A stretch of 64,000 nucleotides of DNA, from assembly GCA_041748855.1 (NCBI GenBank), contig JBGTCK010000051.1:8525-72524 (forward strand), read 5' to 3'. Every line of letters begins with the position of its first letter. Positions within the stretch are counted from its first letter, which is position 1. The position numbers and the translations under genes are program-made. This document shows, in pieces, positions 27,230 through 61,831 of this stretch. The notes below the pieces were generated by a model, which made no database searches, was not told where the DNA came from, and worked only from the letters and a program-made list of their open reading frames with translations. The stretch is from Acidimicrobiia bacterium. GTDB lineage: Bacteria > Actinomycetota > Acidimicrobiia > Spongiisociales > ZC4RG35.

Positions 27230-27687
27230 ACAAGAACCAGCGACAGCACAAGATCACCGACTTGCTCAGGGGCCAGCCGGTGACCAACCAGGGACAGCTC
27301 GTTGAACTCCTCCAACAAGAGGGCGTGGTCGCTACCCAGGCCACAGTTTCCCGCGACCTCGACGAACTAGGCGCGGTGAAGGTGAAGGTGGGCGGTGGGG
27401 ATGCCGTGTATGCCATCCCCGAAAACCCAGCCGACCGTGTGGTGCCTGAAGACCTGCTGAAACGAGTTCTCAGCAACTGGATCGTAGACATCCAGTCTTC
27501 GGCAAACATCGTGGTGATTCGTACTCCCCCTGGCTCGGCGCATGTGGTTGCTTCAGCAATAGACCGCGCAGGCATGCCCGATGTGCTCGGCACCGTCGCC
27601 GGTGACGACACCATGTTCGTGGTGACTTACGAGGGGACAGACGGAAAAGATCTGGCGGCCAGATTCAAGGAGATCGCAGGACTATGA
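27226..27687 (+). CDS. argR: arginine repressor
   Basis: 153 aa with an N-terminal winged-helix ([12 protein letters not shown]) and the C-terminal oligomerisation motif [12 protein letters not shown]. Confidence 0.9.
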
Positions 27688-28910: not shown

Positions 28911-28913
28911 ACC

Positions 28914-30290
28914 ATGACCCTGTGGCAGGGCCGGTTCGAAACCGGGCCATCCGACGACCTCCGTGCGCTCAACGACAGTCTGGCGTTCGACATCCGCATG
29001 TTCCGCGAAGACATCGCCGGTTCTCGTGCCCATGCCCGGATGCTGGCCAAGGTCGGGCTCCTCTCCGGAGACGAGTCCGATGAGATCCTTGCCGCTCTCG
29101 ACACCATCGAGGCGCAGATTGCTGGTGGTGAGTTCGAGTTCGTCGAGAGTGACGAGGACATCCACACTGCCGTCGAACGGGGCGTGACTGCGATCACTCC
29201 TGCCGGGGCCAAGCTGCACACCGGGCGGAGCCGTAACGACCAGGTAACGACCGACCTCCGCCTCTGGACCAAACACGCAATCGACACCACCCTGACCCTC
29301 GTCCATCAGTTGGAGAAAACCCTCCTCGCTCGGGCTGCGGAAGCAGATGAGACAATCCTCCCCGGCTATACCCACCTCCAGCAGGCGCAACCGGTGACCC
29401 TTGCCCACCACCTCCTCGCTCACGGCTGGGCGCTGGCACGTGACTTCGACCGACTCCTGGACGCGAGGAAGCGCCTCGATGTCTCCCCACTGGGCGCCGG
29501 GGCATTGGCCGGATCGACTCTCCCTATCGATCCCGAACTGACAGCCGCCGATCTGGGCTTCGGGTCGGTGTTCGAGAACAGCCTCGATGCCGTCAGCGAC
29601 CGTGACTACGTCGCCGAGACCCTCTTCGCTCTCAGTTTGCTCGGGGTGCACCTGAGCCGGATCGGCGAGGAGCTGGTGGTTTGGTCCTCTACCGAATTCG
29701 GTTACGTGCGGATGGGCGAGACTCACTCCACGGGCTCGTCGATGATGCCTCAGAAGGCAAACCCCGACATCGCCGAACTGGCCCGGGCCAAGTCGGGCAG
29801 GTTGATCGGCAACCTGACCGGGCTACTGGTCACACTCAAAGGCCTCCCCCTCGCCTACAACAAAGACCTCCAGGAAGACAAGGAGCCACTCTTCGACTCT
29901 TTCGACACCATCCAGCTCCTTCTCTCCGCAGTCGACGGGATGATCGCCACTCTGACCTTTGATACCGAAAGGATGGCCGCCGGCGCCGGTTCGCCTTACC
30001 TGTATGCGACCGACCTCGCGGAGTGGCTGGTGGCCCGGGGGACTCCCTTCCGCGAAGCCCATGCCATCGTGGGCGGACTGGTCAGCGAGTCGCTGGCCGG
30101 AGACCGGTCGTTTGGTGATCTGGTCCGGGACTCTTCGGCTCTCGACCCCGAGGCGGCCGCAACTCTCGATCCGGCCACCGACAGACGGGGCACCCGGGGT
30201 GGAGGCACACCGCAGGCCGTCGACCGTCAGATGGCCCACTTCGAGGAACTGATCACAACGCAAGAGAATCTCCAGAAGCAGCACAACTGA
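28914..30290 (+). CDS. argH: argininosuccinate lyase
   Basis: 458 aa with the fumarate-lyase signature GSSMMPQKANPD. Confidence 0.95.
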   Translation: MTLWQGRFETGPSDDLRALNDSLAFDIRMFREDIAGSRAHARMLAKVGLLSGDESDEILAALDTIEAQIAGGEFEFVESDEDIHTAVERGVTAITPAGAKLHTGRSRNDQVTTDLRLWTKHAIDTTLTLVHQLEKTLLARAAEADETILPGYTHLQQAQPVTLAHHLLAHGWALARDFDRLLDARKRLDVSPLGAGALAGSTLPIDPELTAADLGFGSVFENSLDAVSDRDYVAETLFALSLLGVHLSRIGEELVVWSSTEFGYVRMGETHSTGSSMMPQKANPDIAELARAKSGRLIGNLTGLLVTLKGLPLAYNKDLQEDKEPLFDSFDTIQLLLSAVDGMIATLTFDTERMAAGAGSPYLYATDLAEWLVARGTPFREAHAIVGGLVSESLAGDRSFGDLVRDSSALDPEAAATLDPATDRRGTRGGGTPQAVDRQMAHFEELITTQENLQKQHN

Positions 30291-30312: not shown

Positions 30313-30783
30313 ATGCGAAAGCTCCTGTTCATAGTCCTGCTCGGCCTTTCAGCCTGCGGGTCAGGCGAACTCAGGGGCCAGGACCTGGCAGACCTCCCGC
30401 CGATCACCGGGGAGGAAATGGCCGCCACCCTCGCCGGGTCAGACAAGCCCGCTGTGGTCAATGTCTGGGCATCGTGGTGCGGGCCCTGTCGATCCGAGGC
30501 GCCGTTGCTTACCGCAGCCCATGCCGCTTACGGTGACGAGATCGACTTCATCGGTGTCGACGTCCAGGACAACCAGGCCGACGCCAAGAACTTCATTGCC
30601 GAATTCGGGCTCGACTTCACCCACTACTTCGACCGGAACCGGTCGGTGCCCGACTTCTACGGGGGCTTCGGGACCCCGATCACGTTCTTCTTCGACAGCG
30701 CCGGCACCCTGGTCGACACCCATCTCGGCGTCATCGACGAACGGGCGCTGGCCCTCGGCATCGACGAGATCCGAAGGAGGTAA
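30313..30783 (+). CDS. TlpA/ResA-like thiol:disulfide oxidoreductase lipoprotein
   Basis: 156 aa with the lipobox LGLSAC and the thioredoxin-fold motif NVWASWCGPCRSE. Confidence 0.8.
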   Translation: MRKLLFIVLLGLSACGSGELRGQDLADLPPITGEEMAATLAGSDKPAVVNVWASWCGPCRSEAPLLTAAHAAYGDEIDFIGVDVQDNQADAKNFIAEFGLDFTHYFDRNRSVPDFYGGFGTPITFFFDSAGTLVDTHLGVIDERALALGIDEIRRR

Positions 30784-30785
30784 CC

Positions 30786-31448
30786 GTGGAGTTCACGCTG
30801 CTCTGGGCAGCGCTCACCGGTGTCGCCGGACTGTGGATCGGAGTCCGATTCTGGGCGCATGGCGAGATGGACTCCCTGTTCGACAACCTGCTTCTCGCCG
30901 CCGGGGTCGGGTTACTCGGTGGCCGGGTGACTGCGATGGTGGCCCAAGGGTTGAACCCGGTGACCAACCTCGGAGACCTCATCATCGTCCGCGGCGGGGT
31001 GAGCACTGTCACCGCCACCGTCCTCGCTGTTGCAACCCTCTATCTGAGCACCGGAAGAGAAATCCGGGCTCTCGACATGGCGGCCCCGGCAGCCCTGCTC
31101 GGACTCGCCGGGTGGCACCTCGGGTGTCTCTGGCGCGGGGCTTGTCTCGGGACCGCCTCGAATCTTCCTTGGGCCTGGTCAGGTGCCGGAAGTGACATCA
31201 CCCGTCACCCCGTCGAGATCTACGCCGCCCTCGGAATGGCCCTCGGAGCTTTGGTTGTCAACCGGCTCCCAATGCACACCGGAATCCGGTCGGGGACGGC
31301 CCTGGCCCTGGCGTCGGGCGTCAGGTTGGGTACCGAGCCGTTCCGACTCTCGATCACCGGCGGGCCCGTGGAGTGGTACGCGGTCGGGGTCGTCCTTGGC
31401 GTCGCCGCAGCTGCGTTCTCCGCAGGCCGGCAGCGAAAGCGAACTTGA
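30786..31448 (+). CDS. divergent Lgt (prolipoprotein diacylglyceryl transferase) family membrane protein
   Basis: 220 aa (GTG start). It has Lgt-like motifs GLLGGRV, RGGVS, RHPVEIYAAL (compare RHPSQLYE) and GVRLGTEPFR. It is shorter than canonical Lgt, and the GRLGNF region is replaced by GWHLGCLWRGACLG. Confidence 0.5.
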   Translation: MEFTLLWAALTGVAGLWIGVRFWAHGEMDSLFDNLLLAAGVGLLGGRVTAMVAQGLNPVTNLGDLIIVRGGVSTVTATVLAVATLYLSTGREIRALDMAAPAALLGLAGWHLGCLWRGACLGTASNLPWAWSGAGSDITRHPVEIYAALGMALGALVVNRLPMHTGIRSGTALALASGVRLGTEPFRLSITGGPVEWYAVGVVLGVAAAAFSAGRQRKRT

Positions 31449-31479
31449 GTGTTGTGCCCGCGACAGGGAGACTCCTGAC

Positions 31480-32124
31480 GTGAGTGAACTGTTGCGGTTG
31501 GATTCGGTCGCAGTGTCCCTGGGCGGGGTGACTGTGCTCACTGATATCAGCCTCGAAATGGGGTCCGGTGACGCGATCGCGGTTGTCGGACCGAACGGGA
31601 GCGGGAAGACCACCGTCTTGCGGCTGCTGGCCACTCTGCTCCGGCCCGCCCATGGCACCGGAATCGTCCTCGGAGCCGATCTCGGCGGGGTTGTCGAGCG
31701 GTCGGTGCGGACGTCGATTGGCCTGATCACACATGCTCCGGCCCTCCTCGATGAACTGACCATCTCCGAGAACCTGATCCACTTCTGTCGGGTCTCGGAG
31801 CGCCCGGAAGTTGCGGTACCAAAAGCCCTGTCAGCGGTCGGCCTGGAGAACGTGGCCGACCGTTTGGTGGCCCGCTGCAGTTTCGGGATGAAGCGGCGGG
31901 CGGAAATTGCCTGGCTCCTCATCGCCAAACCGCGACTCCTTCTCCTCGACGAGGCCCGTTCCGGCCTCGACATCGAGGCAAGGAGCCTCGTCGACTCACT
32001 GGCCAGGCTCACCCGTGAGCGCGGGGGTGGGGTCGTTGCGGTGTCACACGAAGAGGGCGACCTGAGCCCGGACCTGGTCGCAGTGCACCGGCTCCAAAAC
32101 GGACGGCTGGAGCGGGTGTCGTGA
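31480..32124 (+). CDS. ccmA: heme exporter ATP-binding protein
   Basis: Start placed at a GTG 9 nt downstream of a GGGAG RBS. Walker A is GPNGSGKTT and Walker B is LLLLDEA. Directly followed by ccmB and ccmC. Confidence 0.8.
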   Translation: MSELLRLDSVAVSLGGVTVLTDISLEMGSGDAIAVVGPNGSGKTTVLRLLATLLRPAHGTGIVLGADLGGVVERSVRTSIGLITHAPALLDELTISENLIHFCRVSERPEVAVPKALSAVGLENVADRLVARCSFGMKRRAEIAWLLIAKPRLLLLDEARSGLDIEARSLVDSLARLTRERGGGVVAVSHEEGDLSPDLVAVHRLQNGRLERVS

Positions 32125-32795
32125 GCCTGTGGCGACAGTCCACAGAAGTGATGCGAGTCGACCTGGTGGTGGAACAGCGCATCGGAGACACTTTCCGCAT
32201 CGTGCTCCCCTTTGCGGTGGTGGCCCTGATGATCTTTTCCCTGGCAATACCGGCGGGTGTCAGCGACGTCGGCGACGTGGGCACGGCTGTCTTCTGGGGG
32301 GTTGCCATTCTCTACGGGATGCAGGTTGCTTTGCGCACCTCTATGAGCGAGACGGAACAACGCAAGGACATCGCAATGCTCCTCGGCCTCGACCCGGCAG
32401 CCCGGTTCCTCGGAAGGTCGATGGCTGCGGCCTTGTTCCTCATCGTCTTTATGGGAGTCCTCTTCATCGCGATGGTATTGCTCTTCAATCCGGACCTCCC
32501 CCGGGGTTGGGTCTGGTCGGCCGCACTGGCAATTTTCCTGGCGGCGGGCGGCCTTGCGATGCTCGCCACCCTCGCCGGCGAGGTTGCGTCGGGTCTCCGC
32601 AACCGCTCCGCACTCGCATCACTCCTGATCGCCCCCCTCGCCATTCCCCTGGTCGTCGGGGCCTCACAGTTGCTCGAATTTATGGCGGGGAACAACGGTA
32701 TCCTGATCTGGATTCTGCTTCTGATCACAACAGATCTGGCCCTGCTGGTCGCAGGAGTCGGGCTCTCCAGACCGCTAGAGGAAGCGTCACGATGA
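32121..32795 (+). CDS. ccmB: heme exporter permease
   Basis: 224-aa, 6-TM protein between ccmA and ccmC with 4-nt overlaps on both sides. Confidence 0.8.
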   Translation: MSLWRQSTEVMRVDLVVEQRIGDTFRIVLPFAVVALMIFSLAIPAGVSDVGDVGTAVFWGVAILYGMQVALRTSMSETEQRKDIAMLLGLDPAARFLGRSMAAALFLIVFMGVLFIAMVLLFNPDLPRGWVWSAALAIFLAAGGLAMLATLAGEVASGLRNRSALASLLIAPLAIPLVVGASQLLEFMAGNNGILIWILLLITTDLALLVAGVGLSRPLEEASR

Positions 32796-33502
32796 GACGA
32801 GTACAGATAATGCTCCTGATCGCCGCACTGGCCCTGTCCGTCGGCGTTTACCTGGCGTTCACCGCACCTCTCGATGCCCTTCAGGGTGAATTCACGGCAA
32901 TGCTCTACATCCACGTCCCGACTCTGTGGCTTGCCTTCCTTGCTTTCGGAATCACCGCTCTCGGCTCGATCATGTACCTGATCGGGAAGAAACCCCGCTG
33001 GGATCGCGCCGCGGAAGCTTCTGCCGAGATCGGAGTCCTTTTTGCTGTCGTAGGGGTCTTCAGCGGGATGGTTTGGGGCCAGGCCGTCTGGGGCCAGGCG
33101 TGGGACTGGGGTGATGCCCGCCTGGCGACCACCGCGGTGATGATCTTTGTCTACATCGGATACCTCGCACTGCGCAAAGCAATCCCCGACCCCGACGTTC
33201 GGGCCCGCAGATCGGCCATCCTCGGGACCATCGCCGTCATCCAAGTGCCGCTCGTCTATTTCTCGGTCAACCTCTTTCGCACGCTTCACCAGACCCAGTC
33301 GATCCGCCCCGACGGCGCCACCATGGATCCTGAGATGCTGGTTGCCCTGCTCGTCAACGTCGTCGCCTTCACCATCCTCTACGCAGCGCTGTTCATGGGG
33401 CGCACCTACGTTGCCCGCCTCGAAGCGGCCCGGGTTTCGGAAAGAGCACCGGCCGGCGAAGCCGTCTCACCTCCCCGGCTCAAGGAGATCGAGGATGTCT
33501 GA
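32792..33502 (+). CDS. ccmC: heme exporter/heme lyase-associated protein
   Basis: Start at an ATG overlapping the ccmB stop (ATGA). The Trp-rich WWD motif WGQAVWGQAWDWGDARL is present. The N-terminal 220 codons of the 457-aa ORF overlap ccmB out of frame. Confidence 0.85.
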   Translation: MRRVQIMLLIAALALSVGVYLAFTAPLDALQGEFTAMLYIHVPTLWLAFLAFGITALGSIMYLIGKKPRWDRAAEASAEIGVLFAVVGVFSGMVWGQAVWGQAWDWGDARLATTAVMIFVYIGYLALRKAIPDPDVRARRSAILGTIAVIQVPLVYFSVNLFRTLHQTQSIRPDGATMDPEMLVALLVNVVAFTILYAALFMGRTYVARLEAARVSERAPAGEAVSPPRLKEIEDV

Positions 33503-33596
33503 TGCTCTCGTCGTCGTCGTGACCTACACAGTGGTGTACGGGGCCGCTCTCGGTTACGCCGCCTATCTCCACATGCGCTGGAAGCGGGCGCGGTAG
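33495..33596 (+). CDS. ccmD: CcmD-like small membrane protein
   Basis: 33-codon ORF MSDALVVVVTYTVVYGAALGYAAYLHMRWKRAR: one TM helix with a basic C-terminus, in the canonical position between ccmC (8-nt overlap) and ccmE. Too short for the supplied ORF track as a stand-alone gene. Confidence 0.5.
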   Translation: MSDALVVVVTYTVVYGAALGYAAYLHMRWKRAR

Positions 33597-33598
33597 CC

Positions 33599-34006
33599 AT
33601 GGAGCACCGCACTCTGGTTCTTTCTGGGATCGGAGGGATCATCGCACTCATCATCACCATGTCGCTCATCGGCCTGGGCGACAACCTCACTTACTACCTC
33701 TATCCCACCGAAGCCGTCGAACGACGTGCGGACTTCACCGACGGGGAAAACTTCAGGTTGGCCGGCGCCGTGGTGGAGGGCAGCCTGTCCGAGGAAGGCC
33801 AAGACCTCGTCTTCGATGTTTCTGACGGCGGCGCGACTATCCCGGTCAGGTTGACCAACACTCCTCCTCCGCTGTTCGACGACACGGTCCCGGTGCTGCT
33901 CGATGGTGCCTGGGAAGGTGACACCTACGTCGCGACGAATGCTCTCATCCGCCACGACGAGAACTATGTCGTACCGGAAGAGGGAACCCCGGCCGAGGAA
34001 AGCTGA
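33599..34006 (+). CDS. ccmE: cytochrome c maturation heme chaperone
   Basis: 135 aa with an N-terminal TM anchor, an OB-fold and the heme-binding motif RHDENYVVPE (HxxxY). Confidence 0.85.
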   Translation: MEHRTLVLSGIGGIIALIITMSLIGLGDNLTYYLYPTEAVERRADFTDGENFRLAGAVVEGSLSEEGQDLVFDVSDGGATIPVRLTNTPPPLFDDTVPVLLDGAWEGDTYVATNALIRHDENYVVPEEGTPAEES

Positions 34007-36033
34007 TGGCACTTTCCCTCCTCGGGACCGCCGGAATCCTCGCCGGGCTCCTCGGGGCGGTCCTTCTTGCGTACCGGGGTGTACAGACCGCCCGGTCGGC
34101 AACCGGTGTCGGCGATCTGGCACCTCCCGCCAAACTCCTACTCGGTGGATCCGTTGTCGCGATGCTCGCCATCGAACTGGCGCTCCTGACCAACGACTTT
34201 TCGATCTCCTATGTCGCCAACCACCACGCCTCCACCACTCCGTTCCCGTTCAACGTTGCCAGTGCCTGGGGTGCCCTCGAAGGCTCGATCGTGCTCTGGG
34301 GCCTGGTGCTCGCAGGGTTCACCTGGTTCGTCCTCAGGCAATACCTGAAAGGGCCCGATCATCTCGGTGCGGGGGCCCTGGCGGTTCTCGGCGTGATCTC
34401 AATGTTCTTCTTCGGGCTGATGATCACTGTCTCCAACCCGTTCGAGGTGTGTGTGCAGGCGGCTGAGCAGGCTTGCGCCGTCTCCAGCCCCTGGCCCTTC
34501 TCGTCGATCGACGCACCGGCCGAGGGCGCCGGCCCCAATCCCCTTCTCCAGAACCACATCATGATGGCGATCCACCCCCCGATGCTCTACCTCGGATATG
34601 TCGGGATGTCGGTTCCATTCGCTTATGCAATCAGTGCTCTCGCCCTGAGGGTCCCGGGGCCGGTGTGGCTCCGCCGGTCGCACCGTTCCACCCTGGTGGC
34701 CTGGAGCTTTCTCACCGCCGGCATCGTCCTCGGTGGGTGGTGGGCGTACGAGGTGCTCTCCTGGGGTGGGTACTGGGCATGGGACCCGGTGGAGAATGCG
34801 TCGTTCATGCCGTGGCTGGTGGCCACCGCCTTCCTCCACTCCGCGATCGTTCAACAACGGCGGGACATGCTGCAGGCCTGGAACTTCGTTCTGGTCATCT
34901 CGGCCTTCTCGCTGACAATCCTCGGCACCTTCCTCACCCGCTCGGGCACCATCAACTCCGTCCACTCCTTTACCCAGAGCGCAATCGGCCCGGTATTGCT
35001 CGGGTTCCTCGCCCTTGTCCTGGTTGGATCATTCACGCTCTTCGCCAGCCGCTCCCACCTGGTGAGCTCAGCCCCCCGCATCGACACCTTCGTCAGCCGG
35101 GAGGGTGCATTTCTAGCCAACAACCTCCTGCTCACGCTCTACGCCTTCGTGGTCCTGATCGGAACGACCTACCCGCTTCTCGTCGAGGCTTTCACCGGCA
35201 CCCAGGTGGGGGTGGGAGCACCCTTCTACAACAGGCTCGCAGTTCCGCTCACGTTCGCCCTGCTGCTGGTGATGGGCTTCGGCCCGATCACACCGTGGGG
35301 AGAATCGTCCCCCGGAATCATCTGGAGGAGAAGCCGCGTGCCGCTGGTGGCCGCAGTCGGCGCCGGCCTAGCGGTCGCTCTCTTCGTCAGCCGAATCGGC
35401 TGGGTGGTGTTGGCAGTGGCTCTCGCCACCTTCGTCACCGGCACGATCATCGGGCTTCTGTTCGAACAGGCCGGGCGGCGCGCCGCAAGACGTGAGCTGT
35501 CCCTGGTGGGCGGACTTCGTGAAGTTGTCAGAGGCGACACCGCATTCTGGGCGGGGCAAGTGAGCCACATTGGAGTGATCCTGGTGGCGTTGGGAATTGC
35601 CTTTGCCGCCAATCTGGCGTTGCACGAGACGGTCGTCCTCGAGGCGGGCGAGTCGGTCGGGTTCGCAGGCTACGAGCTCGTCTACGAGGGGCCGTTCCAG
35701 TTCGAAGAGCCGCAGCGGATCGTGCGCGGAGCCCGAATCACCGTGCTGAAGGACAACCAGTTCGTTGCAGTAATGGAGCCGACCAACAATTTCTACGGTT
35801 CACAAGCTTCCGGGATCATCACTCCCGATGTCCTCACCCGGCCCGCAGGTGACCTCTACCTGACTCTTCGCGACCTCGACAACATCAGCGCCACGTTGTC
35901 TCTCGACACTTCGCCTCTGATCTGGCTGCTCTGGTTCGGTGGGCTGCTCGCAGCCGGAGGCGGTTTCTGGGCGATGTCGGCGCGGGCGTCCGAGCGAAAC
36001 CTGGTGACCGAGAGCACTCCGGTAGATGTCTGA
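34006..36033 (+). CDS. ccmF: cytochrome c heme lyase subunit
   Basis: 675-aa polytopic protein with the WWD motif WGGYWAWDPVENASFMPWL. Confidence 0.9.
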   Translation: MALSLLGTAGILAGLLGAVLLAYRGVQTARSATGVGDLAPPAKLLLGGSVVAMLAIELALLTNDFSISYVANHHASTTPFPFNVASAWGALEGSIVLWGLVLAGFTWFVLRQYLKGPDHLGAGALAVLGVISMFFFGLMITVSNPFEVCVQAAEQACAVSSPWPFSSIDAPAEGAGPNPLLQNHIMMAIHPPMLYLGYVGMSVPFAYAISALALRVPGPVWLRRSHRSTLVAWSFLTAGIVLGGWWAYEVLSWGGYWAWDPVENASFMPWLVATAFLHSAIVQQRRDMLQAWNFVLVISAFSLTILGTFLTRSGTINSVHSFTQSAIGPVLLGFLALVLVGSFTLFASRSHLVSSAPRIDTFVSREGAFLANNLLLTLYAFVVLIGTTYPLLVEAFTGTQVGVGAPFYNRLAVPLTFALLLVMGFGPITPWGESSPGIIWRRSRVPLVAAVGAGLAVALFVSRIGWVVLAVALATFVTGTIIGLLFEQAGRRAARRELSLVGGLREVVRGDTAFWAGQVSHIGVILVALGIAFAANLALHETVVLEAGESVGFAGYELVYEGPFQFEEPQRIVRGARITVLKDNQFVAVMEPTNNFYGSQASGIITPDVLTRPAGDLYLTLRDLDNISATLSLDTSPLIWLLWFGGLLAAGGGFWAMSARASERNLVTESTPVDV

Positions 36034-37024
36034 GCGCCTGAAGAACCTGCTGATCGCCGGTGTGACCCTGGCGATGGCGGTCGCGCTGGTGGTGCTTGTG
36101 GCCACCAATGAGTCCCCCGACGACAGGGTCGAACGGCTCGGGGCATCGATCAGGTGCCCGGTCTGCCAGGGCGAAGCCATTGGCGACTCTCCGGCTCAGA
36201 TGGCAACGGACATGATGAACCTCGTCGAAGAACGGGTGGCAGGAGGTGCCTCCGACGAGGAGATAATCGACGAGTTGCTCGGCTCGTTCAGCGGGGCTGT
36301 ACTCCTCGACCCGCCCCTTTCCGGAGCGACATTGCTTCTCTGGCTGGCGCCGGTGGCAGCTCTCTTGGTCGGGGTGGCGGTGGTCCTGTGGTGGAAGTCG
36401 CACCCCGGCCGAATCACAACGGACGATCGTCCTCCGGCCACACGCACCAGGCGCCTGGTCGGAGGGCTCATCCTCGTCGGGGGCTTCGGTGCGATTGTGC
36501 TGGTTGCCGCCACGCTGCTCCAGGATCGGGCCGGCCCCAACGAAGGTGTTGCCGACGTCGCCGACGCCGACCTCGCCGACGTCAGCAACGAGACGATGGA
36601 AGCAGTGGTCGCAGCCAACCTGGACAATCCACAGATCAACGGGATGCGTCTCGCTCTTGCCGAGAGATATTTCGCAACGGGCGACTATCGGGCAGCCTTC
36701 CCGCATTACCTGCACGTCGCCCAGGATGGGTCGTCCAGCGACGATGAAGCAACCGCCGCCCTGGTCCGCCTTGCCTGGATGGCGTATGACGGTAACGATG
36801 AGCTCGACACTGCAATCGCTCTCCTCGATGAGGCCCTGCAGATCCGCCCTGGTTTCGGGGGAGCGCTCTATTGGAAGGGCCAGGTTCTGTGGTGTGAAGG
36901 CGAGAACAACCAGGCAGCGGAGCTGTTCGAGCAGGTTCTCGCTGACAGTGAGTTCGAAGATGACACGCGATCAGCGGTCGAGGCCGACCTCGCCCGGGCG
37001 TCGGCCGGGGAGTCGTGCCAATGA
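36026..37024 (+). CDS. ccmH: CcmH fused to a TPR-like (CcmI-like) C-terminal domain
   Basis: 332 aa with the RCPVCQGEAIGDSPAQMATDM motif (LRCxxC), a TM helix, then a helical repeat region. Confidence 0.8.
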   Translation: MSERLKNLLIAGVTLAMAVALVVLVATNESPDDRVERLGASIRCPVCQGEAIGDSPAQMATDMMNLVEERVAGGASDEEIIDELLGSFSGAVLLDPPLSGATLLLWLAPVAALLVGVAVVLWWKSHPGRITTDDRPPATRTRRLVGGLILVGGFGAIVLVAATLLQDRAGPNEGVADVADADLADVSNETMEAVVAANLDNPQINGMRLALAERYFATGDYRAAFPHYLHVAQDGSSSDDEATAALVRLAWMAYDGNDELDTAIALLDEALQIRPGFGGALYWKGQVLWCEGENNQAAELFEQVLADSEFEDDTRSAVEADLARASAGESCQ

Positions 37025-37614
37025 GAGGCAACGCCATCAAGTGGGCGGGCCTAGCTATAGCCGGCGCAGCTGTGATCTTCTCGGTTGTACTCGCAAGCCG
37101 CTTCGGGATCGATCCCGGACTCGTCGAGTCTCCTCTCCTCGGTGAGACCGCTCCTGCCCTCGAGCTGCCGTTCCTCGATGGCTCGGGAACCTTCGACACC
37201 ACCGACCTGGACGGCACGATCACTGTCGTCAACTTCTTCGCATCGTGGTGTCTCGAATGCCGGAACGAGCATGCCGACCTCGTCGCCACCGCTGACGCTT
37301 TCGCCGACCGGGGGGTCCGCTTCGTGCAGATCTCCTACCAGGAGAGTGCCGGGGCTTCGTCCTCATATCTCGACCAGGCGGGTCGGTCTGCTTCGACCCT
37401 GTACCTCCACGACCCTGGGAGCAGGGCAGCAATCGCTTTCGGAGTATTCGGGATCCCGGAGACCTTCTTCATCGACGACTCCGGCACCGTCGTGGGCAAG
37501 ATCATCGGCGAGGCAACCGCTTTGATTCTGGGAGCCACTCTGGACACGATTCTGGCCGGGAATGTTCCCGGTCAGCAGGTCACCGGGGATACCCGGCAAC
37601 AGCCCGAAAGCTAG
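37021..37614 (+). CDS. ccmG: thiol:disulfide interchange protein DsbE/CcmG
   Basis: Start taken at the ATG overlapping the ccmH stop (ATGA); a GTG at 37015 is also possible. It has a TM anchor and the thioredoxin-fold motif NFFASWCLECRNE plus GVFGIPETF. Confidence 0.8.
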   Translation: MRGNAIKWAGLAIAGAAVIFSVVLASRFGIDPGLVESPLLGETAPALELPFLDGSGTFDTTDLDGTITVVNFFASWCLECRNEHADLVATADAFADRGVRFVQISYQESAGASSSYLDQAGRSASTLYLHDPGSRAAIAFGVFGIPETFFIDDSGTVVGKIIGEATALILGATLDTILAGNVPGQQVTGDTRQQPES

Positions 37615-39029
37615 CTATCCGGCGGTGGTTCCTCGTCGGGACGCAGAACCTCTAGGGCGACCTCGTCGAAGGTGACCGTGTCGATCGAAGCCGGGCCGGT
37701 GTCTAGGAGGAAGACGTCGAAGAACCCGATCAGATACTGGTTGATGATTGCGATTATCCGCCCAGCGCCGATTGGCCCGCGCAAACCCATCTCGTCGGCG
37801 AGTGGGGAGAACAGAGGAAGCATCACGAAGTCGTTGTGCCCGGAGCCGTCGATTCCGATCCAGTACGTAATTGCCTCGCTGCGCTCGGCGATCCCCCGCA
37901 GAATTGCGTCGTTGCGCCTGTCATCCCACTCTGCCGAACGCAAGAACATCGCAGGCTTGGTCGCTGATATGGCCAAGATATCGTTGGGCAGTTGCTCAAC
38001 CCAGGGATCCATCCCCAGGAACGCGTCACAGCGCTCATCGGTGATGCAAACGCTTAGTGCCCCTCCCCCACCGGCGGAGTGCCCGTAGAGCCCAATCCGG
38101 GTCAGGTCGATGCTCTCGACAATCGGCCCGAAGGGGCCAGCTTCCGCCTCGTCAAGTGCATCGAGGACCGCCACGAGGTCGTTGGCGTAGGTCTCCACCA
38201 GAAGCTGGGCAGCATCCTCATAAACATCTGCGGCGACACTCCCTTCATCGGGCAGAGCGTCGGGGTCGTAGGGCACCAGATCTCCGTCGTCGAAGATGGT
38301 GGCAACTGCCATATAGGTATGATCTGGTGCGATCACGACGTATCCGTTGGAGACGAGGTTCTCGATCTGATTGAGTGCAACCGACCGATATCCACGCCAA
38401 CCATGACTGTAGATGACTAGCGGATACGTGCCGGGGGCGACGGTGAGGCCCTCATATGTGTGCGACTTGGTATACCCAAGATGATTGAGAAACCACGAGG
38501 GAAGGCCTACCGACCGGGCTAGTTCGGGTCCGATCTCCGACCACTGCGGGTGGATCTGGCCCGGGTCGGTCTCGCTGTCCGGCAACGCGGGGTAAAAAAT
38601 CTGTACTACCAAGTCCCGAGCCCGCCCCGGATGAGGGCCATACACCTCCTCGCTTTCAGGGACCGAAAGCTCGACGGTGACCGTGCCAACGGTTTCGGGG
38701 CCGGAGGGTGCGGGCAATTCCGGCACCGGGAATAGCCAGGCGGGTGATGACACGAGCAGGAGGCCGGCCAACCCGAACACGCCACGGGCGATCCGGCTCG
38801 ACCACTTGAGATTGCGATCGAGAAAGACGATATCGCCGATGATCAGCCCGACTGCGGCCGCATAGAGAGGGATCAGCTGCCAGCGAAAACCTCCGATCTG
38901 CAACTGTGCGATCAACGTCGCGAACATCAAACCGGACGCAATCCCCCGCCTGGGGCGAACCCCGAAGACCGCAGGCCAGGCCACGGCAAAGACACAAGTG
39001 AACAGGAGAAGAAGCTCGAACTGTCTCAC
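37611..39029 (-). CDS. membrane-anchored alpha/beta hydrolase (PAF-acetylhydrolase/dienelactone hydrolase-like)
   Basis: 472 aa with N-terminal TM helices and the nucleophile elbow LYGHSAGGG. Confidence 0.7.
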   Translation of the reverse strand: MRQFELLLLFTCVFAVAWPAVFGVRPRRGIASGLMFATLIAQLQIGGFRWQLIPLYAAAVGLIIGDIVFLDRNLKWSSRIARGVFGLAGLLLVSSPAWLFPVPELPAPSGPETVGTVTVELSVPESEEVYGPHPGRARDLVVQIFYPALPDSETDPGQIHPQWSEIGPELARSVGLPSWFLNHLGYTKSHTYEGLTVAPGTYPLVIYSHGWRGYRSVALNQIENLVSNGYVVIAPDHTYMAVATIFDDGDLVPYDPDALPDEGSVAADVYEDAAQLLVETYANDLVAVLDALDEAEAGPFGPIVESIDLTRIGLYGHSAGGGGALSVCITDERCDAFLGMDPWVEQLPNDILAISATKPAMFLRSAEWDDRRNDAILRGIAERSEAITYWIGIDGSGHNDFVMLPLFSPLADEMGLRGPIGAGRIIAIINQYLIGFFDVFLLDTGPASIDTVTFDEVALEVLRPDEEPPPDS

Positions 39030-39083
39030 AGGGAGTAGGGCCCGGTCGGAGCGACGTTCATCAGTTGTCGCCCGGGGTGACGT

Positions 39084-39449
39084 CTACCACGAATCAGGCT
39101 TCGGCGTCCCCTGATGAAAACTCATAAGCCATCGACCCGACCGTTTCACCCAGACCGAGCTGCGAAGGACCTCCCGGCCGGTCGAGCCTGTGGTCCGATA
39201 GGTGCAGAGCATGACCGTCGGATATATCTCCCGGACCTCCCAGTCCTTGACCACCACTTCTTGTGAGCGCCCGCGTGACATCTCCCGCACTATCGACACC
39301 AGGTCATACTGGCGGCCCCTGGTCCCGATCTCGGTGAACTCGTCGGCAAACAGTTCGAGGACACGGGAGGTATCTCTCCTGAACTCTGGGTCCAGAAGTT
39401 GCATTTCGAGGTCGCGAAGCAGCTCCTCGGTGGAGATCTCAATCGGCAT
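39084..39449 (-). CDS. DUF4440/SnoaL-like (NTF2 fold) protein
   Basis: 121 aa with the pattern typical of DUF4440. Lies 22 nt downstream of the TlpA-like gene. Confidence 0.65.
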   Translation of the reverse strand: MPIEISTEELLRDLEMQLLDPEFRRDTSRVLELFADEFTEIGTRGRQYDLVSIVREMSRGRSQEVVVKDWEVREIYPTVMLCTYRTTGSTGREVLRSSVWVKRSGRWLMSFHQGTPKPDSW

Positions 39450-39471
39450 GACGCCGATCGTAGCGAACTGT

Positions 39472-40074
39472 TTACCCAGTCAGAGCGATGAGGTTTTCGA
39501 GCGCCTCTCTGATCTCGTCCTCCGCCCTGATCCCGGGCCAGGAATCGACAACGGTTTGGTCAGCGGCGATCAGAACGGTCACCGGCTGATACGGAACCCC
39601 GTAGAGCCCAAAAATGTCCTCATCGGCATCAAGACCCCACTTGACCTCACCGGAGAGAAACAGCTCCTCGGCTCTCGCTTCGGTCAGTTCGAAACTCGAC
39701 TTCCAGGCAGGAGCGACGAAGTCGACTCTGTCGGCGTACTCAGCGGCAAGTTGGTCGACGACGGGCAACTCCCGTCGACAGGTGGGTCACCATTCGGCCC
39801 AGAAGACGAGATATACCGGTCGGGCTCCATCGGAGAGCGTGTAACTGCCTCCGTCTCCTAGTTCCAGCGTGAAGTCGGGAGCGAGATCACGGTCCGACGT
39901 CGTTGCCGACTCCTCAGGGCTGGTCGTGGTGTCGCCCGCTCCGGGAGGTGTCGTGGTGGCAGAGGTGGCGACGGTTGTGTCACCGGGACCGGCCTCCGTC
40001 GTGGTCGTCCCGGAGTCACCGGCACAGGCCGACACCACCAGCGCCAGGAGACAGAGGACAATCGACTTTTTCAT
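39472..40074 (-). CDS. TlpA/ResA-like thioredoxin-fold lipoprotein with in-frame TGA at the redox motif (candidate selenoprotein U-P-T-C; alternatively a pseudogene)
   Basis: ORFs 39787..40197 and 39472..39768 are in the same frame and separated only by the TGA at 39787..39789. The read-through product reads MKKSIVLCLLALVVSAC...RPVYLVFWAEW-[TGA]-PTCRRELPVVDQLAAEY... The TGA replaces the first Cys of W-C-x-x-C (the paralogs read WASWCGPC and FASWCLEC). Confidence 0.55.
39754..39780 (-). promoter_or_regulatory. SECIS-like hairpin downstream of the in-frame UGA
   Basis: In the mRNA UGA-CCCACCUGUC-GACGGG-AGUUG-CCCGUC-GUCGAC, a 6-7 bp stem is extendable by GUC/GAC across a 3-nt bulge. The 5-nt apical loop contains G-U at positions 21 and 22 from the U of UGA (E. 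coli fdhF has G23/U24). Confidence 0.45.
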
Positions 40075-40139
40075 GGGTCCAACGCTAGACGGAGTGGTGT
40101 TTACCGGGAGTAAATGAGATCGGATGGGAAACATTACAC

Positions 40140-40610
40140 TTGGACTTCGTGCCAGACACCCAGCTCTACTTTGCATACGCCTCGCTGCTCGACCCACAGC
40201 AGTTGGCGGAAACGGCGCCCGGTGCCCGATTCCTCTTCAGCGCCCACTTCCCGGAGACCATGCTCGTGTTCGTTGCCAACGGTGCCGGGCCCGTTGCTTC
40301 CCTCGTCGAGTCAGCAGGTTCGATCGTCTGGGGTGGTGTTTTCGAGGTACCCCGGGCCGAAGTGGACCAGCTCGTTCTGAGTGAGGCCGGGGAGGGCCGG
40401 GCACCGGCGTGGGAGATGAAGGCCGTTGATCGTGCTGGGAACAAACACGAGTGTCTGGCGTTTGTCGCCGACCCTGCCGGCGTCGCCGAACCCGAAAATC
40501 CCACTGCGGAGTACCTGGGAAACATGATCCGGGGAGCGCGACACTGGAACCTCCCGGCCGGATGGGTGGTTGGCCTCGAAGACCTCGCCGACGACCAGCT
40601 ACTCACCTGA
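40140..40610 (+). CDS. gamma-glutamylcyclotransferase (AIG2/GGACT-like) family protein
   Basis: 156 aa (TTG start in the track; the exact start is uncertain). YFAYASLLDP...VWGGVFEV is typical of the GGCT fold. Confidence 0.7.
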   Translation: MDFVPDTQLYFAYASLLDPQQLAETAPGARFLFSAHFPETMLVFVANGAGPVASLVESAGSIVWGGVFEVPRAEVDQLVLSEAGEGRAPAWEMKAVDRAGNKHECLAFVADPAGVAEPENPTAEYLGNMIRGARHWNLPAGWVVGLEDLADDQLLT

Positions 40611-40894
40611 GTTCTAATGGAAACATCCGGTCTTCCCCGGGTGTGGCTTCAAATCCTCTGCTCAGGCCTCTCTGCGACCGGGAACAACCTATAGAGCCCG
40701 TAGGCGACAAGTGCACCGACGAGTGGGACACCAGGTACATCAGAGGTCGTTGAAATTTCCTGACACGACCAAGACGCGCTCCTCCCGTTTCAAGCCAGAC
40801 CTTCTGACCCATCGACCCACCCGAAAGGTTTCCGGCCAGGCTCAGGCTATTTCAGAAGAGGTCCAGTGACGTGGATTTCGGTGCTGGAAAGCGA

Positions 40895-46850: not shown

Positions 46851-46919
46851 CCCGGCAACGCGCAGAAGACCCCTCTCGGGGTCCTCTGCACACTGTGAGT
46901 CGATCTGTAAGCCGGATTC
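46851..46919 (-). repeat. rnpB 3' end plus terminator (direct repeat B, part of the functional gene)
   Basis: 69 nt, 66/69 identical to 43385..43453. Confidence 0.8.
46865..46886 (-). terminator. hairpin immediately 3' of rnpB
   Basis: Minus-strand RNA forms GAGGACCCC-GAGA-GGGGUCUUC: 9 bp including one G-U pair, with a GNRA loop. The same stem would carry a C-A mismatch on the plus-strand RNA. Confidence 0.5.
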
Positions 46920-47267
46920 TGTTACCTGTCGCGCCCGGCAACGCCGGGCCGACACGACGACCATCCATCTAGGCGAACTGTCTCCAGTCCGCTCGAGCGG
47001 CCTACCCGGGATATTCAACGGGCCGTTGATCCCTGCTTGGCCTTGCTCCCGGTGGGGTTTACAAGCTGTCCCGGTCGCCCGGGGCACTGGTGGTCTCTTA
47101 CACCACCTTTTCACCCTTGCCTGTGTCCGAAGACCATCGGCGGTTCATTTTCTGCTGCACTTTCCGTCGGGTTGCCCCGCCTGGGAGTTACCCAGCACCG
47201 TGCCCTGTGGAGTCCGGACTTTCCTCGCCTCCGCTGCGCGGAGCCGCGGCCGTCCAATCGACTCGCT
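46895..47267 (-). ncRNA. rnpB: RNase P RNA, bacterial type A
   Basis: The minus strand reads GCGAGUCGAU...GGAGGCGAGGAAAGUCCGGACUCCACAGGGCA...GGGUAAC...AGUGCAGCAGAAA...CCGCCGAUGG...CAAGGGUGAAAAGGUGGUGUAAGAGACCACC...GGGAGCAAGGCCAAGCAGGG...CCCGGGUAGGCCGCUCGAGC...CUAGAUGGAUGG...ACAGAAUCCGGCUUACAGAUCGACUC. Universally conserved P4/J regions are present. Ends are approximate to within a few nt. Confidence 0.9.
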
Positions 47268-61785: not shown

Positions 61786-61831
61786 GTCCTCAGACTGTAA
61801 CGAGGACAGGCGGACAGTCAGGCCGGATTAG

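What the first reader, a model, noticed from the sequence alone, without database searches (positions are those of the whole stretch)
39472..40074. Candidate selenoprotein: TlpA-like lipoprotein with UGA in place of the first Cys of the CxxC redox motif, plus a SECIS-like hairpin
Two same-strand ORFs (39787..40197 and 39472..39768) are in one frame, separated only by the TGA at 39787..39789. Reading through gives a 200-residue thioredoxin-fold lipoprotein: MKKSIVLCLLALVVSAC (lipobox) ... RPVYLVFWAEW-[UGA]-PTCRRELPVVDQLAAEYADRVDFV...

The UGA sits at the nucleophilic Cys of W-C-x-x-C. The two paralogs in this window read NVWASWCGPCRSE and NFFASWCLECRNE. Neither half looks like a viable gene alone: the upstream half would end one residue before the active site, and the downstream half would need a TTG start inside the motif.

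Eleven nt after the UGA the mRNA forms GACGGG-AGUUG-CCCGUC, extendable by GUC/GAC across a 3-nt bulge. This places a G-U-containing apical loop about 20 nt from the UGA, close to the geometry of bacterial SECIS elements. TGA is an ordinary stop elsewhere in the window (argC, argB, ccmE and others), so this is not genome-wide reassignment. Sec/Cys pairs in thioredoxin-like and Prx-like oxidoreductases are an established class of bacterial selenoproteins, but Sec use is uncommon in Actinomycetota.
Basis: partly seen in the sequence, partly recalled or inferred. Interest (0 to 1): 0.8.

Follow-up and report, generated by a model that had tools for sequence, protein, structure and literature searches.

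The report
Selenocysteine TlpA/ResA-like lipoprotein gene
The apparent stop codon inside this thioredoxin-like lipoprotein gene is almost certainly a selenocysteine codon: 70 related Acidimicrobiia assemblies keep the same UGA and a co-varying RNA hairpin after it, so this is a real, routinely mis-annotated member of a known class of bacterial selenoproteins.

Summary
On the minus strand, ATG 40074 to TAA 39472 reads as one 200-codon TlpA/ResA-like lipoprotein gene. It is interrupted only by TGA 39787-39789, at the first position of W-[U]-P-T-C.

Among 80 homologous loci from reference genomes (nearly all Acidimicrobiia MAGs), 70 carry TGA at this codon and 10 carry TGC/TGT. All 71 TGA genes, window included, keep an intact 102-106-codon frame after it. 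That part is under purifying selection (dN/dS about 0.2).

The hairpin GACGGG-AGUUG-CCCGUC starts 10 nt after the UGA. It pairs in 99.5% of cells, has compensatory changes at two pairs, and coincides with a sharp drop in synonymous variation. Cys forms lack that drop, and their hairpins are absent or decayed. Sec and Cys forms sit in the same syntenic position, convergent on the ccm cytochrome c maturation operon.

A model of a Cys ortholog superposes on ResA (TM 0.90).

The main gap is that selA/selB/selC/selD could not be checked in any genome carrying the gene. Several attempts failed, and only a preprint on Actinomarina supports Sec use within the class.

TlpA-like UxxC selenoproteins are already catalogued, so this is a new member of a known kind.

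The parts
39472..40074 (-). Complete coding sequence of the selenoprotein: 200 codons including Sec96, plus the TAA stop at 39472-39474.
   Evidence: translation; Redoxin/AhpC-TSA/Thioredoxin Pfam hits across the TGA; full-length Cys orthologs and 70 TGA orthologs.
40024..40074 (-). Lipoprotein signal peptide MKKSIVLCLLALVVSAC, with the lipobox V-S-A-C. Cys17 is the predicted lipidated residue.
   Evidence: Read directly from the sequence. Cys17 is nearly invariant in the homolog alignment. No dedicated signal-peptide predictor was run.
39895..40023 (-). Low-complexity Thr/Pro/Gly-rich linker (residues 18 to about 60) between the lipid anchor and the catalytic domain.
   Evidence: very variable in length and sequence among homologs. 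pLDDT is 57-72 in the model of the ortholog.
39475..39894 (-). Thioredoxin-fold (TlpA/ResA/CcmG-like) catalytic domain, residues 61-200.
   Evidence: The AlphaFold model of Cys ortholog P0004 matches ResA with TM 0.90 and rmsd 1.4 A.
39787..39789 (-). In-frame UGA read as selenocysteine (Sec96), at the nucleophilic position of the redox motif.
   Evidence: TGA in 70 of 80 related loci and TGC/TGT in 10; 52 predicted proteins all end at ...VFWAEW.
39778..39789 (-). Redox motif U-P-T-C. The resolving Cys99 codon is 39778-39780.
   Evidence: C99 invariant; helix alpha-1 of the ortholog begins right after the first Cys.
39760..39776 (-). Core of the SECIS-like hairpin: 5' arm GACGGG 39771-39776, loop AGUUG 39766-39770, 3' arm CCCGUC 39760-39765. 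Ten nucleotides separate the UGA from the first paired base.
   Evidence: 99.5% of cells paired, with compensatory GC to AU/UA changes at two pairs; synonymous-site trough at codons +5 to +9 in TGA genes only.
39754..39780 (-). Possible lower extension of the hairpin. Either C-G plus G-C/U-G across a U-U mismatch, or GUC/GAC across a 3-nt bulge.
   Evidence: 73-100% paired depending on the pair, and no change on both sides at any of these pairs. Weakly supported.
39084..39449 (-). DUF4440 gene 22 nt downstream on the same strand, probably co-transcribed.
   Evidence: Pfam; conserved in this position in 37 of 70 TGA loci and 6 of 10 Cys loci.
37611..39029 (-). PAF-acetylhydrolase-like alpha/beta hydrolase gene with a hydrophobic N-terminus, next downstream on the same strand.
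   Evidence: conserved in 63 of 70 TGA loci and 9 of 10 Cys loci.
31183..37614 (+). Context: System I cytochrome c maturation cluster, convergent on the selenoprotein gene. It comprises ccmA, ccmB, ccmC region, ccmE, ccmF, ccmH and a Cys-containing CcmG/TlpA-like paralog (37015-37614).
   Evidence: synteny is kept in 51-55 of 70 TGA loci and 8 of 10 Cys loci.

Best explanation
The gene at 40074-39472 (minus strand) encodes one 200-residue exported lipoprotein with a TlpA/ResA/CcmG-type thioredoxin fold. Its active site is U-P-T-C.

UGA 39789-39787 is decoded as selenocysteine. The hairpin that begins 10 nt downstream (6-bp G+C-rich stem, loop AGUUG) is inferred to act as a bacterial SECIS. It would recruit SelB·GTP·Sec-tRNA(Sec) to the ribosome paused at the UGA, in competition with release factor 2.

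The mature protein would be tethered by its lipidated Cys17 and a flexible Thr/Pro linker to the outer face of the membrane. There it is inferred to work as a thiol-disulfide reductase. Sec96 attacks a substrate disulfide, Cys99 resolves the mixed selenenylsulfide, and the Se-S form is re-reduced by a membrane electron shuttle.

Its conserved position next to the ccm operon suggests a partner in cytochrome c maturation or another extracytoplasmic redox client. That link is inference from synteny only.

Shown here: the conserved recoded UGA, the Sec/Cys orthology, the RNA-level constraint and the fold. Inferred: SelB dependence, actual selenium incorporation, export and lipidation, and the substrate.
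For: 1. Conserved stop. 52 predicted proteins with very divergent N-termini all end at ...PVYLVFWAEW.

2. Sec/Cys pair. In 80 loci from reference genomes the next codon is TGA in 70 and TGC/TGT in 10. Full-length homologs read WAEW-C-P-x-C.

3. Translation continues past the UGA. All 71 TGA genes keep a 102-106-codon in-frame continuation, and 49 of them then terminate at a real TGA. Median dN/dS is 0.21 and 0.19 downstream, against 0.12 upstream, at dS about 1.3-1.4.

4. RNA structure. The core helix pairs in 99.5% of cells. Pair 20-36 has GC in 60, AU in 4, UA in 1 and GU in 4. Pair 23-33 has GC in 65, AU in 4 and GU in 1. Pair 21-35 switches between AU and GU. No shuffle reached the observed number of cells changed on both sides. 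Several compensatory changes alter the protein on one side (Arg to Gln or Leu) and are silent on the other. They occur in separate branches of the tree.

5. Synonymous constraint. Codons +5 to +9 are almost fixed in TGA genes: CGG 67/67, GAG 71/71, TTG 66 with TTA 5, CCC 66 with CCT 5, GTC 61/70. Codon entropy there is 0-0.6 bits, against 1.0-2.4 bits for Leu, Pro and Arg codons elsewhere in the gene. Cys genes use CTN, CCG and AAG at the same positions.

6. Orthology. Sec and Cys forms lie in the same syntenic slot. Cys forms nested among Sec forms (L084, L085, L086) and the outer-clade L047 keep decayed remnants of the hairpin. This is the pattern expected after Sec-to-Cys replacement.

7. 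Fold. Pfam Redoxin/AhpC-TSA/Thioredoxin hits. The closest solved sequences are Etrx1, DsbF, DsbE and ResA. The model of ortholog P0004 (pLDDT above 95 in the domain) superposes on ResA at TM 0.90 and rmsd 1.4 A, and helix alpha-1 starts right after the Cys/Sec.

8. TGA is the commonest ordinary stop in the window, so the code is not reassigned.

9. Literature. TlpA-like (cd02966) and Prx-like UxxC selenoproteins are catalogued families (PMC13188914; PMC1088965). selA, selB, selC and selD are reported in all 84 complete Actinomarina genomes, which belong to class Acidimicrobiia (bioRxiv 10.64898/2026.04.03.716425).
Against: - No selA, selB, selD or tRNA-Sec was found in the window or in the 80 loci (1.25 Mb, largely the same syntenic region). 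The rest of any genome that carries the gene could not be read. The window's own contig is not in the searchable collections.
- The hairpin of the single sequence is not thermodynamically exceptional (z = -1.15).
- No Rfam family matches. Rfam has little coverage of bacterial SECIS elements.
- No other conserved in-frame TGA/Cys site was found in the syntenic +/-10 kb. There is therefore no second selenoprotein here to corroborate Sec decoding.
- There is no experimental evidence of selenium incorporation.
Confidence: 0.9

Rival explanations
1. The UGA is read through, with help from the downstream hairpin, but without selenocysteine. The inserted residue would be Cys or Trp, delivered by a near-cognate or suppressor tRNA, or by SelB carrying a mis-charged tRNA.
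For: Sec machinery was not demonstrated in these genomes. One homolog, P0059, has Trp at this position (WAEWWGSC), so a TGG codon is tolerated at least once.
Against: The position is the nucleophilic Cys of a CxxC motif, the classical Sec/Cys site. The hairpin's size, its spacing from the UGA and its G-containing small loop fit bacterial SECIS elements (features as described in PMC1088965). Cys could be encoded directly at no cost, as it is in 10 loci. Keeping a UGA plus a constrained hairpin in 70 lineages is therefore hard to explain unless something other than Cys is inserted. Sec machinery is reported within the class.
Confidence: 0.05
2. The TGA is a true stop and the locus holds two separate products. 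One is a short anchored N-terminal lipoprotein ending at Trp95. The other is an independently initiated C-terminal fragment starting at the TTG (39768).
For: Gene callers predict exactly these fragments.
Against: The split would fall inside the redox motif of a single compact domain. Pfam matches and the structural model run across it. The supposed TTG start is TTA in five loci, which is not a start codon, and it lies in the hairpin loop. Ten orthologs in the same syntenic slot are uninterrupted.
Confidence: 0.03
3. The gene is a pseudogene inactivated by a nonsense mutation, or the TGA is an assembly or sequencing error.
For: A single in-frame stop in one sequence would normally suggest this.
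Against: The same TGA is present in 70 independent assemblies that have diverged to dS about 1.3. None has a second lesion. The downstream half is under purifying selection with dN/dS about 0.2.
Confidence: 0.01

Closest known systems
[quoted passage not shown] Sources: Zhang, Fomenko & Gladyshev 2005 (PMC1088965); review PMC13188914.
   Same: Thioredoxin fold with cd02966/PF00578/PF08534-type sequence. Sec at the first position of UxxC, with Cys-containing homologs. A stem-loop with a small G-containing loop just downstream of the UGA.
   Different: This clade is defined by the W-A-E-W-U-P-T-C motif, a lipoprotein anchor with a Thr/Pro linker, a fixed position next to the ccm operon, and presence in most Acidimicrobiia reference genomes sampled. 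I found none of these described.
ResA (Bacillus subtilis and B. anthracis), CcmG/DsbE and TlpA: extracytoplasmic thiol-disulfide reductases of cytochrome c maturation.
   Same: Best structural matches (TM 0.90, rmsd 1.4 A to 1su9/1st9/4nmu). Membrane-tethered, with CxxC at the start of helix alpha-1. Genomic association with cytochrome c maturation genes.
   Different: Sec instead of the nucleophilic Cys. Only 25-29% sequence identity, and scores far below the NCBIfam cut-offs for ResA (51.9 against 170 bits) and TlpA (29.2 against 230 bits). A separate Cys-containing CcmG-like paralog sits inside the ccm operon (37015-37614), so this protein is probably not the canonical CcmG.
Mycobacterium tuberculosis DsbE (Mpt53, 1LU4) and DsbF (3IOS), and Streptococcus pneumoniae surface lipoproteins Etrx1/Etrx2 (4EVM/4HQS, 2YP6).
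   Same: Secreted or lipid-anchored thioredoxin-like proteins of monoderm bacteria. They are the best sequence matches among solved structures (E = 5e-11 to 3e-9) and good structural matches.
   Different: All use Cys. Their clients (for example MsrAB2 for Etrx) are not encoded next to this gene.
NCBIfam selenoprotein models NF041054 (ResA-like WAxxUGC motif protein) and NF041057 (Rcas_1661 family thioredoxin-like (seleno)lipoprotein).
   Same: The concept is the same: thioredoxin-like, ResA-like exported or lipid-anchored proteins with Sec in the redox motif. The local motif also resembles WAxxU.
   Different: Scores are 19.7 bits (cut-off 300) and 17.9 bits (cut-off 190), so this protein is not a member of either. 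The motif here is UPTC, not UGC.
Escherichia coli fdhF SECIS element.
   Same: A hairpin inside the coding sequence that starts about 10-11 nt after the UGA, with a short G+C-rich upper stem and a small loop containing G and U. The fdhF details are from my own knowledge of the literature (Liu et al. 1998) and were not checked here.
   Different: There is no sequence similarity. No bulged U is evident, and the loop is the 5-nt AGUUG. SelB binding was not tested.

Membership tests
Bacterial selenoprotein gene (Sec-UGA plus SECIS) | In-frame UGA aligned with Cys in homologs (a Sec/Cys pair), with conserved flanks on both sides. | tested here: met
   TGA in 70 loci and TGC/TGT in 10. The flanks FWAEW and PTCRRELP are conserved. 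U/C was the only residue aligned at the site in the six-frame scan.
Bacterial selenoprotein gene (Sec-UGA plus SECIS) | The reading frame continues after the UGA and is under purifying selection. | tested here: met
   all 71 genes keep 102-106 codons after the UGA; dN/dS is 0.19-0.21.
Bacterial selenoprotein gene (Sec-UGA plus SECIS) | A stem-loop immediately downstream of the UGA with a small apical loop containing G, supported by covariation. | tested here: met
   (99.5% paired; compensatory changes at 2 of 6 pairs; loop AGUUG with G2 invariant). (synonymous-site trough in TGA genes only). Single-sequence stability is not significant.
Bacterial selenoprotein gene (Sec-UGA plus SECIS) | tRNA-Sec (selC), selA, selB and selD present in the same genome. 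| not testable with these tools
   None was found in the window or in the 1.25 Mb of related loci. The window contig is not in the collections. SelD seeds from the metagenome scan turned out to be Binatia, Gemmatimonadota, Propionibacteriaceae and Dormibacterota. Support is from the literature only: Actinomarina genomes.
Bacterial selenoprotein gene (Sec-UGA plus SECIS) | Selenium incorporated at the UGA position. | not testable with these tools
   This needs 75Se labelling or mass spectrometry.
TlpA/ResA/CcmG-like thioredoxin-fold oxidoreductases (cd02966) | Thioredoxin fold with the N-terminal beta-hairpin and central insertion typical of ResA/CcmG. | tested here: met
   AlphaFold model of Cys ortholog P0004 (75% identical over the domain; pLDDT above 95). 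Foldseek top hits are ResA, DsbF, DsbE and CcmG, with TM up to 0.90. The window protein itself was not modelled.
TlpA/ResA/CcmG-like thioredoxin-fold oxidoreductases (cd02966) | W-C-x-x-C redox motif at the N-terminus of helix alpha-1, and a cis-Pro loop. | tested here: met
   The motif is W-U-P-T-C. Helix 87-103 of the model starts after C86. The Pro of Y-Q-P aligns with the Y-P of Etrx1. The cis conformation is inferred, not measured.
TlpA/ResA/CcmG-like thioredoxin-fold oxidoreductases (cd02966) | Export signal or membrane anchor. | tested here: met
   An N-terminal basic-hydrophobic segment with lipobox VSAC is visible in the sequence. Cys17 is nearly invariant. This rests on inspection only; no predictor was run.
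ResA / TlpA / DsbE equivalogs (NCBIfam NF002854, NF047696, NF011941) | Score at or above the curated cut-off. | tested here: not met
   51.9 against 170 bits, 29.2 against 230 bits, and 26.6 against 359 bits.
NCBIfam selenoprotein families NF041054 (WAxxUGC) and NF041057 (Rcas_1661 selenolipoprotein) | Score at or above the curated cut-off. | tested here: not met
   19.7 against 300 bits and 17.9 against 190 bits.
Peroxiredoxin (AhpC/TSA, PF00578) | Peroxidatic Cys/Sec in a P-x-x-x-T/S-x-x-C/U motif. | tested here: not met
   The Pfam AhpC-TSA hit reflects the shared fold. The sequence around the site is F-W-A-E-W-U-P-T-C, a thioredoxin-type WCxxC motif, with no PxxxTxxC.
'Thiol-disulfide isomerase-like' selenoprotein family of the Sargasso Sea study | Sequence similarity to its reference members (MGB1650493.1, MAK15852.1). 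| not testable with these tools
   Only the family description (cd02966 / PF13905, UxxC) could be compared. The reference sequences could not be fetched.

The most novel reading that the evidence does not exclude
This lipoprotein may be a class-wide, Sec-dependent extracytoplasmic reductase coupled to System I cytochrome c maturation. If so, respiration-related redox maintenance in most Acidimicrobiia would depend on selenium, and this gene would be a main reason the class keeps the Sec trait. The evidence allowing this reading is the fixed convergent position next to ccmF-ccmH-ccmG in 51-55 of 70 TGA loci, and the repeated but rare replacement by Cys. Nothing here tests the client protein.
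Probability: 0.25. Interest if true: 0.6.

Novelty: new member of a known kind. Interest (0 to 1): 0.45.

Why it matters
- **Annotation.** In every assembly examined, the gene appears only as truncated open reading frames or under a generic 'hypothetical' label. The protein database holds at least 52 such N-terminal fragments. No NCBIfam model would rescue it. Recognising the family would correct the annotation of a conserved gene in a widespread, mostly uncultured class of Actinomycetota.

- **Selenium biology.** It indicates that many soil, freshwater and marine Acidimicrobiia need selenium. It also gives a clean natural series of Sec forms, Cys forms and decaying SECIS remnants at one orthologous locus. 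That series could be used to study why Sec is kept or lost.

- **Biochemistry.** It offers a Sec-containing ResA/TlpA-type reductase on the outside of a monoderm cell. Comparing the U96C variant would measure what Sec buys in an oxidising compartment.

Tried and rejected
**1. Rfam.** The whole window at gathering thresholds gave only RNase P RNA and tRNA-Val. A permissive scan of 39400-40150 gave three chance-level hits and no SECIS family.

**2. Sec machinery nearby.** ARAGORN and tblastn with E. coli SelA, SelB and SelD against the window and 80 loci found nothing. My first attempt to fetch E. coli selA from a remembered sequence also failed. The genes were then taken from NC_000913.

**3. 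Finding the window's own genome.** Only a 2.2-kb Logan contig carries the neighbouring protein.

**4. Reaching Acidimicrobiia sel genes through a metagenome scan.** That ranking was misleading.
- L184 (selA-selB-selD) is Binatia/Deltaproteobacteria.
- L177, L093 and L201 are Gemmatimonadota.
- L135 is Enemella evansiae.
- L090 is Dormibacterota/Chloroflexi.

**5. A second selenoprotein.**
- A search for other hairpins with the same loop after a TGA found none.
- A six-frame scan for conserved U/C sites was first too noisy.
- After tightening, it left only this gene plus low-complexity off-frame artefacts.

**6. Promoter and terminator scan of 37400-40700.** No sites.

**7. Rejected readings.**
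- Peroxiredoxin: no PxxxTxxC motif.
- Canonical CcmG: a separate Cys paralog sits in the ccm operon.
- Genome-wide UGA reassignment: TGA is the commonest stop.
Full report
**1. The observation**

On the minus strand the sequence reads ATG (40074) AAA AAG ... TTC TGG GCC GAA TGG TGA CCC ACC TGT CGA CGG GAG TTG CCC GTC GTC GAC ... TAA (39474-39472). This is one frame of 200 codons with a single internal TGA at 39789-39787.

The second starts at a TTG. With Cys placed at the TGA, the protein matches Pfam Redoxin and AhpC-TSA over residues 63-178, straight across the interruption, and Thioredoxin over 81-120.

The N-terminus MKKSIVLCLLALVVSAC has a lipobox.

**2. The stop codon is conserved, not accidental**

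A protein search with the read-through sequence returned about 68 full-length homologs of roughly 190 residues. It also returned 52 shorter predicted proteins without Pfam domains. Every one of those 52 ends in ...PVYLVFWAEW, although their N-terminal parts are very different from one another. The full-length homologs read WAEW-C-P-[T/V]-C at the same place.

A scan of one genome per species of bacteria and archaea gave 185 confirmed relatives, of which the best 80 loci were kept. Nearly all are titled Acidimicrobiia or Actinomycetota MAGs. A few bins carry other labels but have the same gene order. Two loci, L016 and L020, come from one assembly.

The codon after FWAEW is TGA in 70 loci, TGC in 8 and TGT in 2. 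All 71 TGA genes (70 loci plus the window) continue in frame for 102-106 codons without any further stop or frameshift. In 49 of them the true terminator is itself TGA.

For 300 random pairs of TGA genes, median dN/dS is 0.12 for the 30 codons before the TGA. It is 0.21 and 0.19 for two blocks after it, at dS about 1.3-1.4. So the part after the TGA is translated and selected. A pseudogene, a sequencing error or two unrelated genes cannot explain this.

**3. The hairpin**

I aligned the 63 nt around the TGA from the 71 TGA genes (no gaps).

| Feature | Result |
|---|---|
| Core helix, columns 20-25 with 31-36 (window 39776-39771 with 39765-39760) | Standard pairs in 99.5% of cells |
| Pair 20-36 | GC 60, AU 4, UA 1, GU 4 |
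| Pair 23-33 | GC 65, AU 4, GU 1 |
| Pair 21-35 | Alternates between AU (49) and GU (20) |
| Other three pairs | Never vary |
| Cells changed on both sides | 9 observed; shuffle mean 0.8; 0 of 500 shuffles reach 9 |
| 3' arm slid by 1-2 columns | Pairing drops to 28-46% |

The double changes are informative. CGG to CAG (Arg to Gln) is matched by the silent CCC to CCT in L028, L032, L045 and, on a different branch, L039. CGA to CAA is matched by GTC to GTT in L041/L044 and separately in L053/L060. G-U intermediates occur in L006, L013, L025 and L046. CGA to CUA is matched by GTC to GTA in L037. A protein-level constraint would not produce such changes.

The proposed lower extensions are weaker, with 73-100% pairing depending on the pair and no change on both sides.

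The loop is AGUUG. It is AGUUA in five loci, so only the G at loop position 2 is invariant.

On its own the window's hairpin is not unusually stable (-17.8 kcal/mol, z = -1.15). No Rfam family matches it. The case for the hairpin is therefore entirely comparative.

**4. Synonymous sites**

Codon by codon, the TGA genes show a sharp trough of synonymous variation at codons +5 to +9:

- CGG in 67 of 67
- GAG in 71 of 71
- TTG in 66, TTA in 5
- CCC in 66, CCT in 5
- GTC in 61 of 70

Codon entropy there is 0-0.6 bits. Leu, Pro and Arg codons elsewhere in the same gene have 1.0-2.4 bits.

TTG is otherwise a minority Leu codon in this gene. The ten Cys genes use CTG/CTT/CTC for this Leu, CCG for the Pro, and mostly AAG (Lys) in place of the CGG.

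**5. Sec and Cys forms are orthologs, and Cys replaced Sec more than once**

Both forms lie in the same gene order: AIG2-like gene (divergent), then this gene, DUF4440 and a PAF-acetylhydrolase-like hydrolase on one strand. These are convergent on ccmG-like, ccmH and ccmF.

In a neighbour-joining tree, the ten Cys loci of the genome scan form one clade outside the Sec forms. Three further Cys genes, fetched from metagenome assemblies, nest at two places inside the Sec clade: L085 alone, and L084 with L086.

These nested Cys genes and L047 still carry remnants of the hairpin:

- L086 keeps everything except a U-U mismatch at pair 21-35.
- L047 keeps the loop and 5' arm, but has CCG for CCC.
- L084 has lost the 3' arm.
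- L085 has a changed loop.

Decaying remnants of this kind in Cys-containing descendants of selenoproteins were described by Zhang et al. 2006 (PMC1794560).

**6. What the protein is**

The closest solved sequences are S. pneumoniae Etrx1 (4EVM/4HQS, E about 1e-10), M. tuberculosis DsbF and DsbE/Mpt53, and ResA.

I made an AlphaFold model of Cys ortholog P0004, which is 75% identical to the window protein over the domain. Mean pLDDT is 88.5 overall and above 95 through the domain. The N-terminal 50 residues, the signal peptide and linker, are of low confidence.

Foldseek places the model with ResA of B. subtilis and B. anthracis (TM normalised to the target 0.90, rmsd 1.4 A). Next come DsbF, DsbE, CcmG, Etrx1/2, StoA and SdbA. 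Helix alpha-1 begins immediately after the first Cys of the motif, which is the position of Sec96 in the window protein.

The protein scores far below the NCBIfam cut-offs for ResA, TlpA and DsbE. It also scores far below those of the two related selenoprotein models, NF041054 (WAxxUGC) and NF041057 (Rcas_1661 selenolipoprotein). It is not a peroxiredoxin, because there is no PxxxTxxC motif.

The window also holds an arg operon, a second thioredoxin-like lipoprotein gene, an Lgt-like gene and ccmA-B-C-E-F-H-G.

**7. Mechanism proposed**

*Shown:*
- The UGA is conserved in an otherwise intact, selected frame.
- It aligns with the nucleophilic Cys of orthologs.
- An RNA helix 10 nt downstream is constrained only when the UGA is present.

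*Inferred:*
- The helix is a bacterial SECIS bound by SelB·GTP·Sec-tRNA(Sec), which delivers Sec at the UGA.
- The precursor is exported, lipidated at Cys17 and held on a Thr/Pro-rich tether.
- Sec96 attacks disulfides of extracytoplasmic clients and Cys99 resolves the selenenylsulfide.
- Synteny points to cytochrome c maturation. However, a Cys-containing CcmG-like paralog already sits inside the ccm operon, so the client remains open.

**8. The gap: Sec machinery**

Neither the window nor the 80 loci contain selA, selB, selD or tRNA-Sec. This says little, because the loci largely cover the same syntenic 20 kb.

The window's own contig is not in the collections. I tried to reach Acidimicrobiia sel genes through a metagenome scan with a SelD motif, followed by composition-based triage.

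The only support is from the literature. A 2026 preprint reports selC, selA, selD and a divergent selB in all 84 complete genomes of Actinomarina, an order of Acidimicrobiia, with about five predicted selenoproteins each. Older surveys record Sec use in several Actinobacteria.

No second conserved UGA/Cys site exists in the syntenic region.

**9. Comparison with what is known, and verdict**

Thioredoxin-fold UxxC selenoproteins have been catalogued since 2005-2006. [quoted passage not shown] All are listed as predicted with high confidence in current reviews.

This gene works like them and meets every defining feature that could be tested. Whether this particular Acidimicrobiia clade is already in those lists could not be checked. 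No curated NCBIfam model covers it, and public annotations show only truncated fragments.

I therefore file it as a new member of a known kind. I give 0.9 confidence that the UGA encodes selenocysteine. Interest is moderate: the result is solid and corrects a systematic annotation error in a widespread class, but it would not surprise a selenoprotein specialist.

Noticed in passing
P0059 (JGI metagenome contig of 1149 bp), aligned with window codon 39787-39789: One full-length homolog has Trp at the Sec/Cys position (WAEW-W-GSC). This would be a one-base change from TGA to TGG. It may be an inactive or single-Cys variant, or an assembly error.
   Followed up: no
L018, L046, L062, L068, L077 (alignment A2 column 30; window 39766): Five TGA loci have the loop AGUUA instead of AGUUG (Leu TTA for TTG). 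The last loop G is therefore dispensable, while the G at loop position 2 is invariant. TTA also cannot serve as a start codon for a separate downstream ORF.
   Followed up: partly
L084, L085, L086, L047: Cys-containing orthologs closest to the Sec forms keep partly decayed copies of the hairpin. This gives a graded series of SECIS loss after Sec-to-Cys replacement.
   Followed up: partly
L042, L053-L055, L060, L063, L064, L069, L074, L077: In a subset of TGA loci, 2-3.5 kb of extra DNA lies between this gene and the PAF-AH-like hydrolase gene, and DUF4440 is not detected. The inserted genes were not examined.
   Followed up: no
window 30313-31448 (+): A second thioredoxin-like lipoprotein gene (signal MRKLLFIVLLGLSAC, motif WCGPC) is followed directly by an Lgt-like prolipoprotein diacylglyceryl transferase gene. 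Both lie just upstream of ccmA.
   Followed up: partly
window 46892-47265 (-) and 61831-61905 (-): Bacterial RNase P RNA class A (298 bits) and a tRNA-Val (TAC).
   Followed up: no
window 25829-30290 (+): Arginine biosynthesis block (argF-like, argR, argG, argH) immediately upstream of the thioredoxin/ccm region.
   Followed up: no
L177:75-1172(-), L093:2930-4018(+), L090, L184 (metagenome contigs of other phyla): Many SelD genes fetched by the motif scan are themselves Sec forms (…SHGAG-U-ACK…), called as N-terminally truncated ORFs. L177 and L093 have a 5-6-bp hairpin starting 11 nt after the UGA. They belong to Gemmatimonadota, Dormibacterota and Binatia.
   Followed up: partly
L129:12095-14311(+): A 738-residue NifS-SelD fusion protein (cysteine desulfurase/selenium donor protein) on a metagenome contig.
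   Followed up: no
L006, L029, L036, L044 (record titles): Four loci with the same gene order as the Acidimicrobiia loci sit in bins titled Acidobacteria, Boseongicola or Gammaproteobacteria. The bins are probably mislabelled or contaminated.
   Followed up: no
window 39202-39861 (+): A 219-codon ORF runs antisense to the selenoprotein and DUF4440 genes. It is probably a by-product of high G+C content rather than a gene.
   Followed up: no
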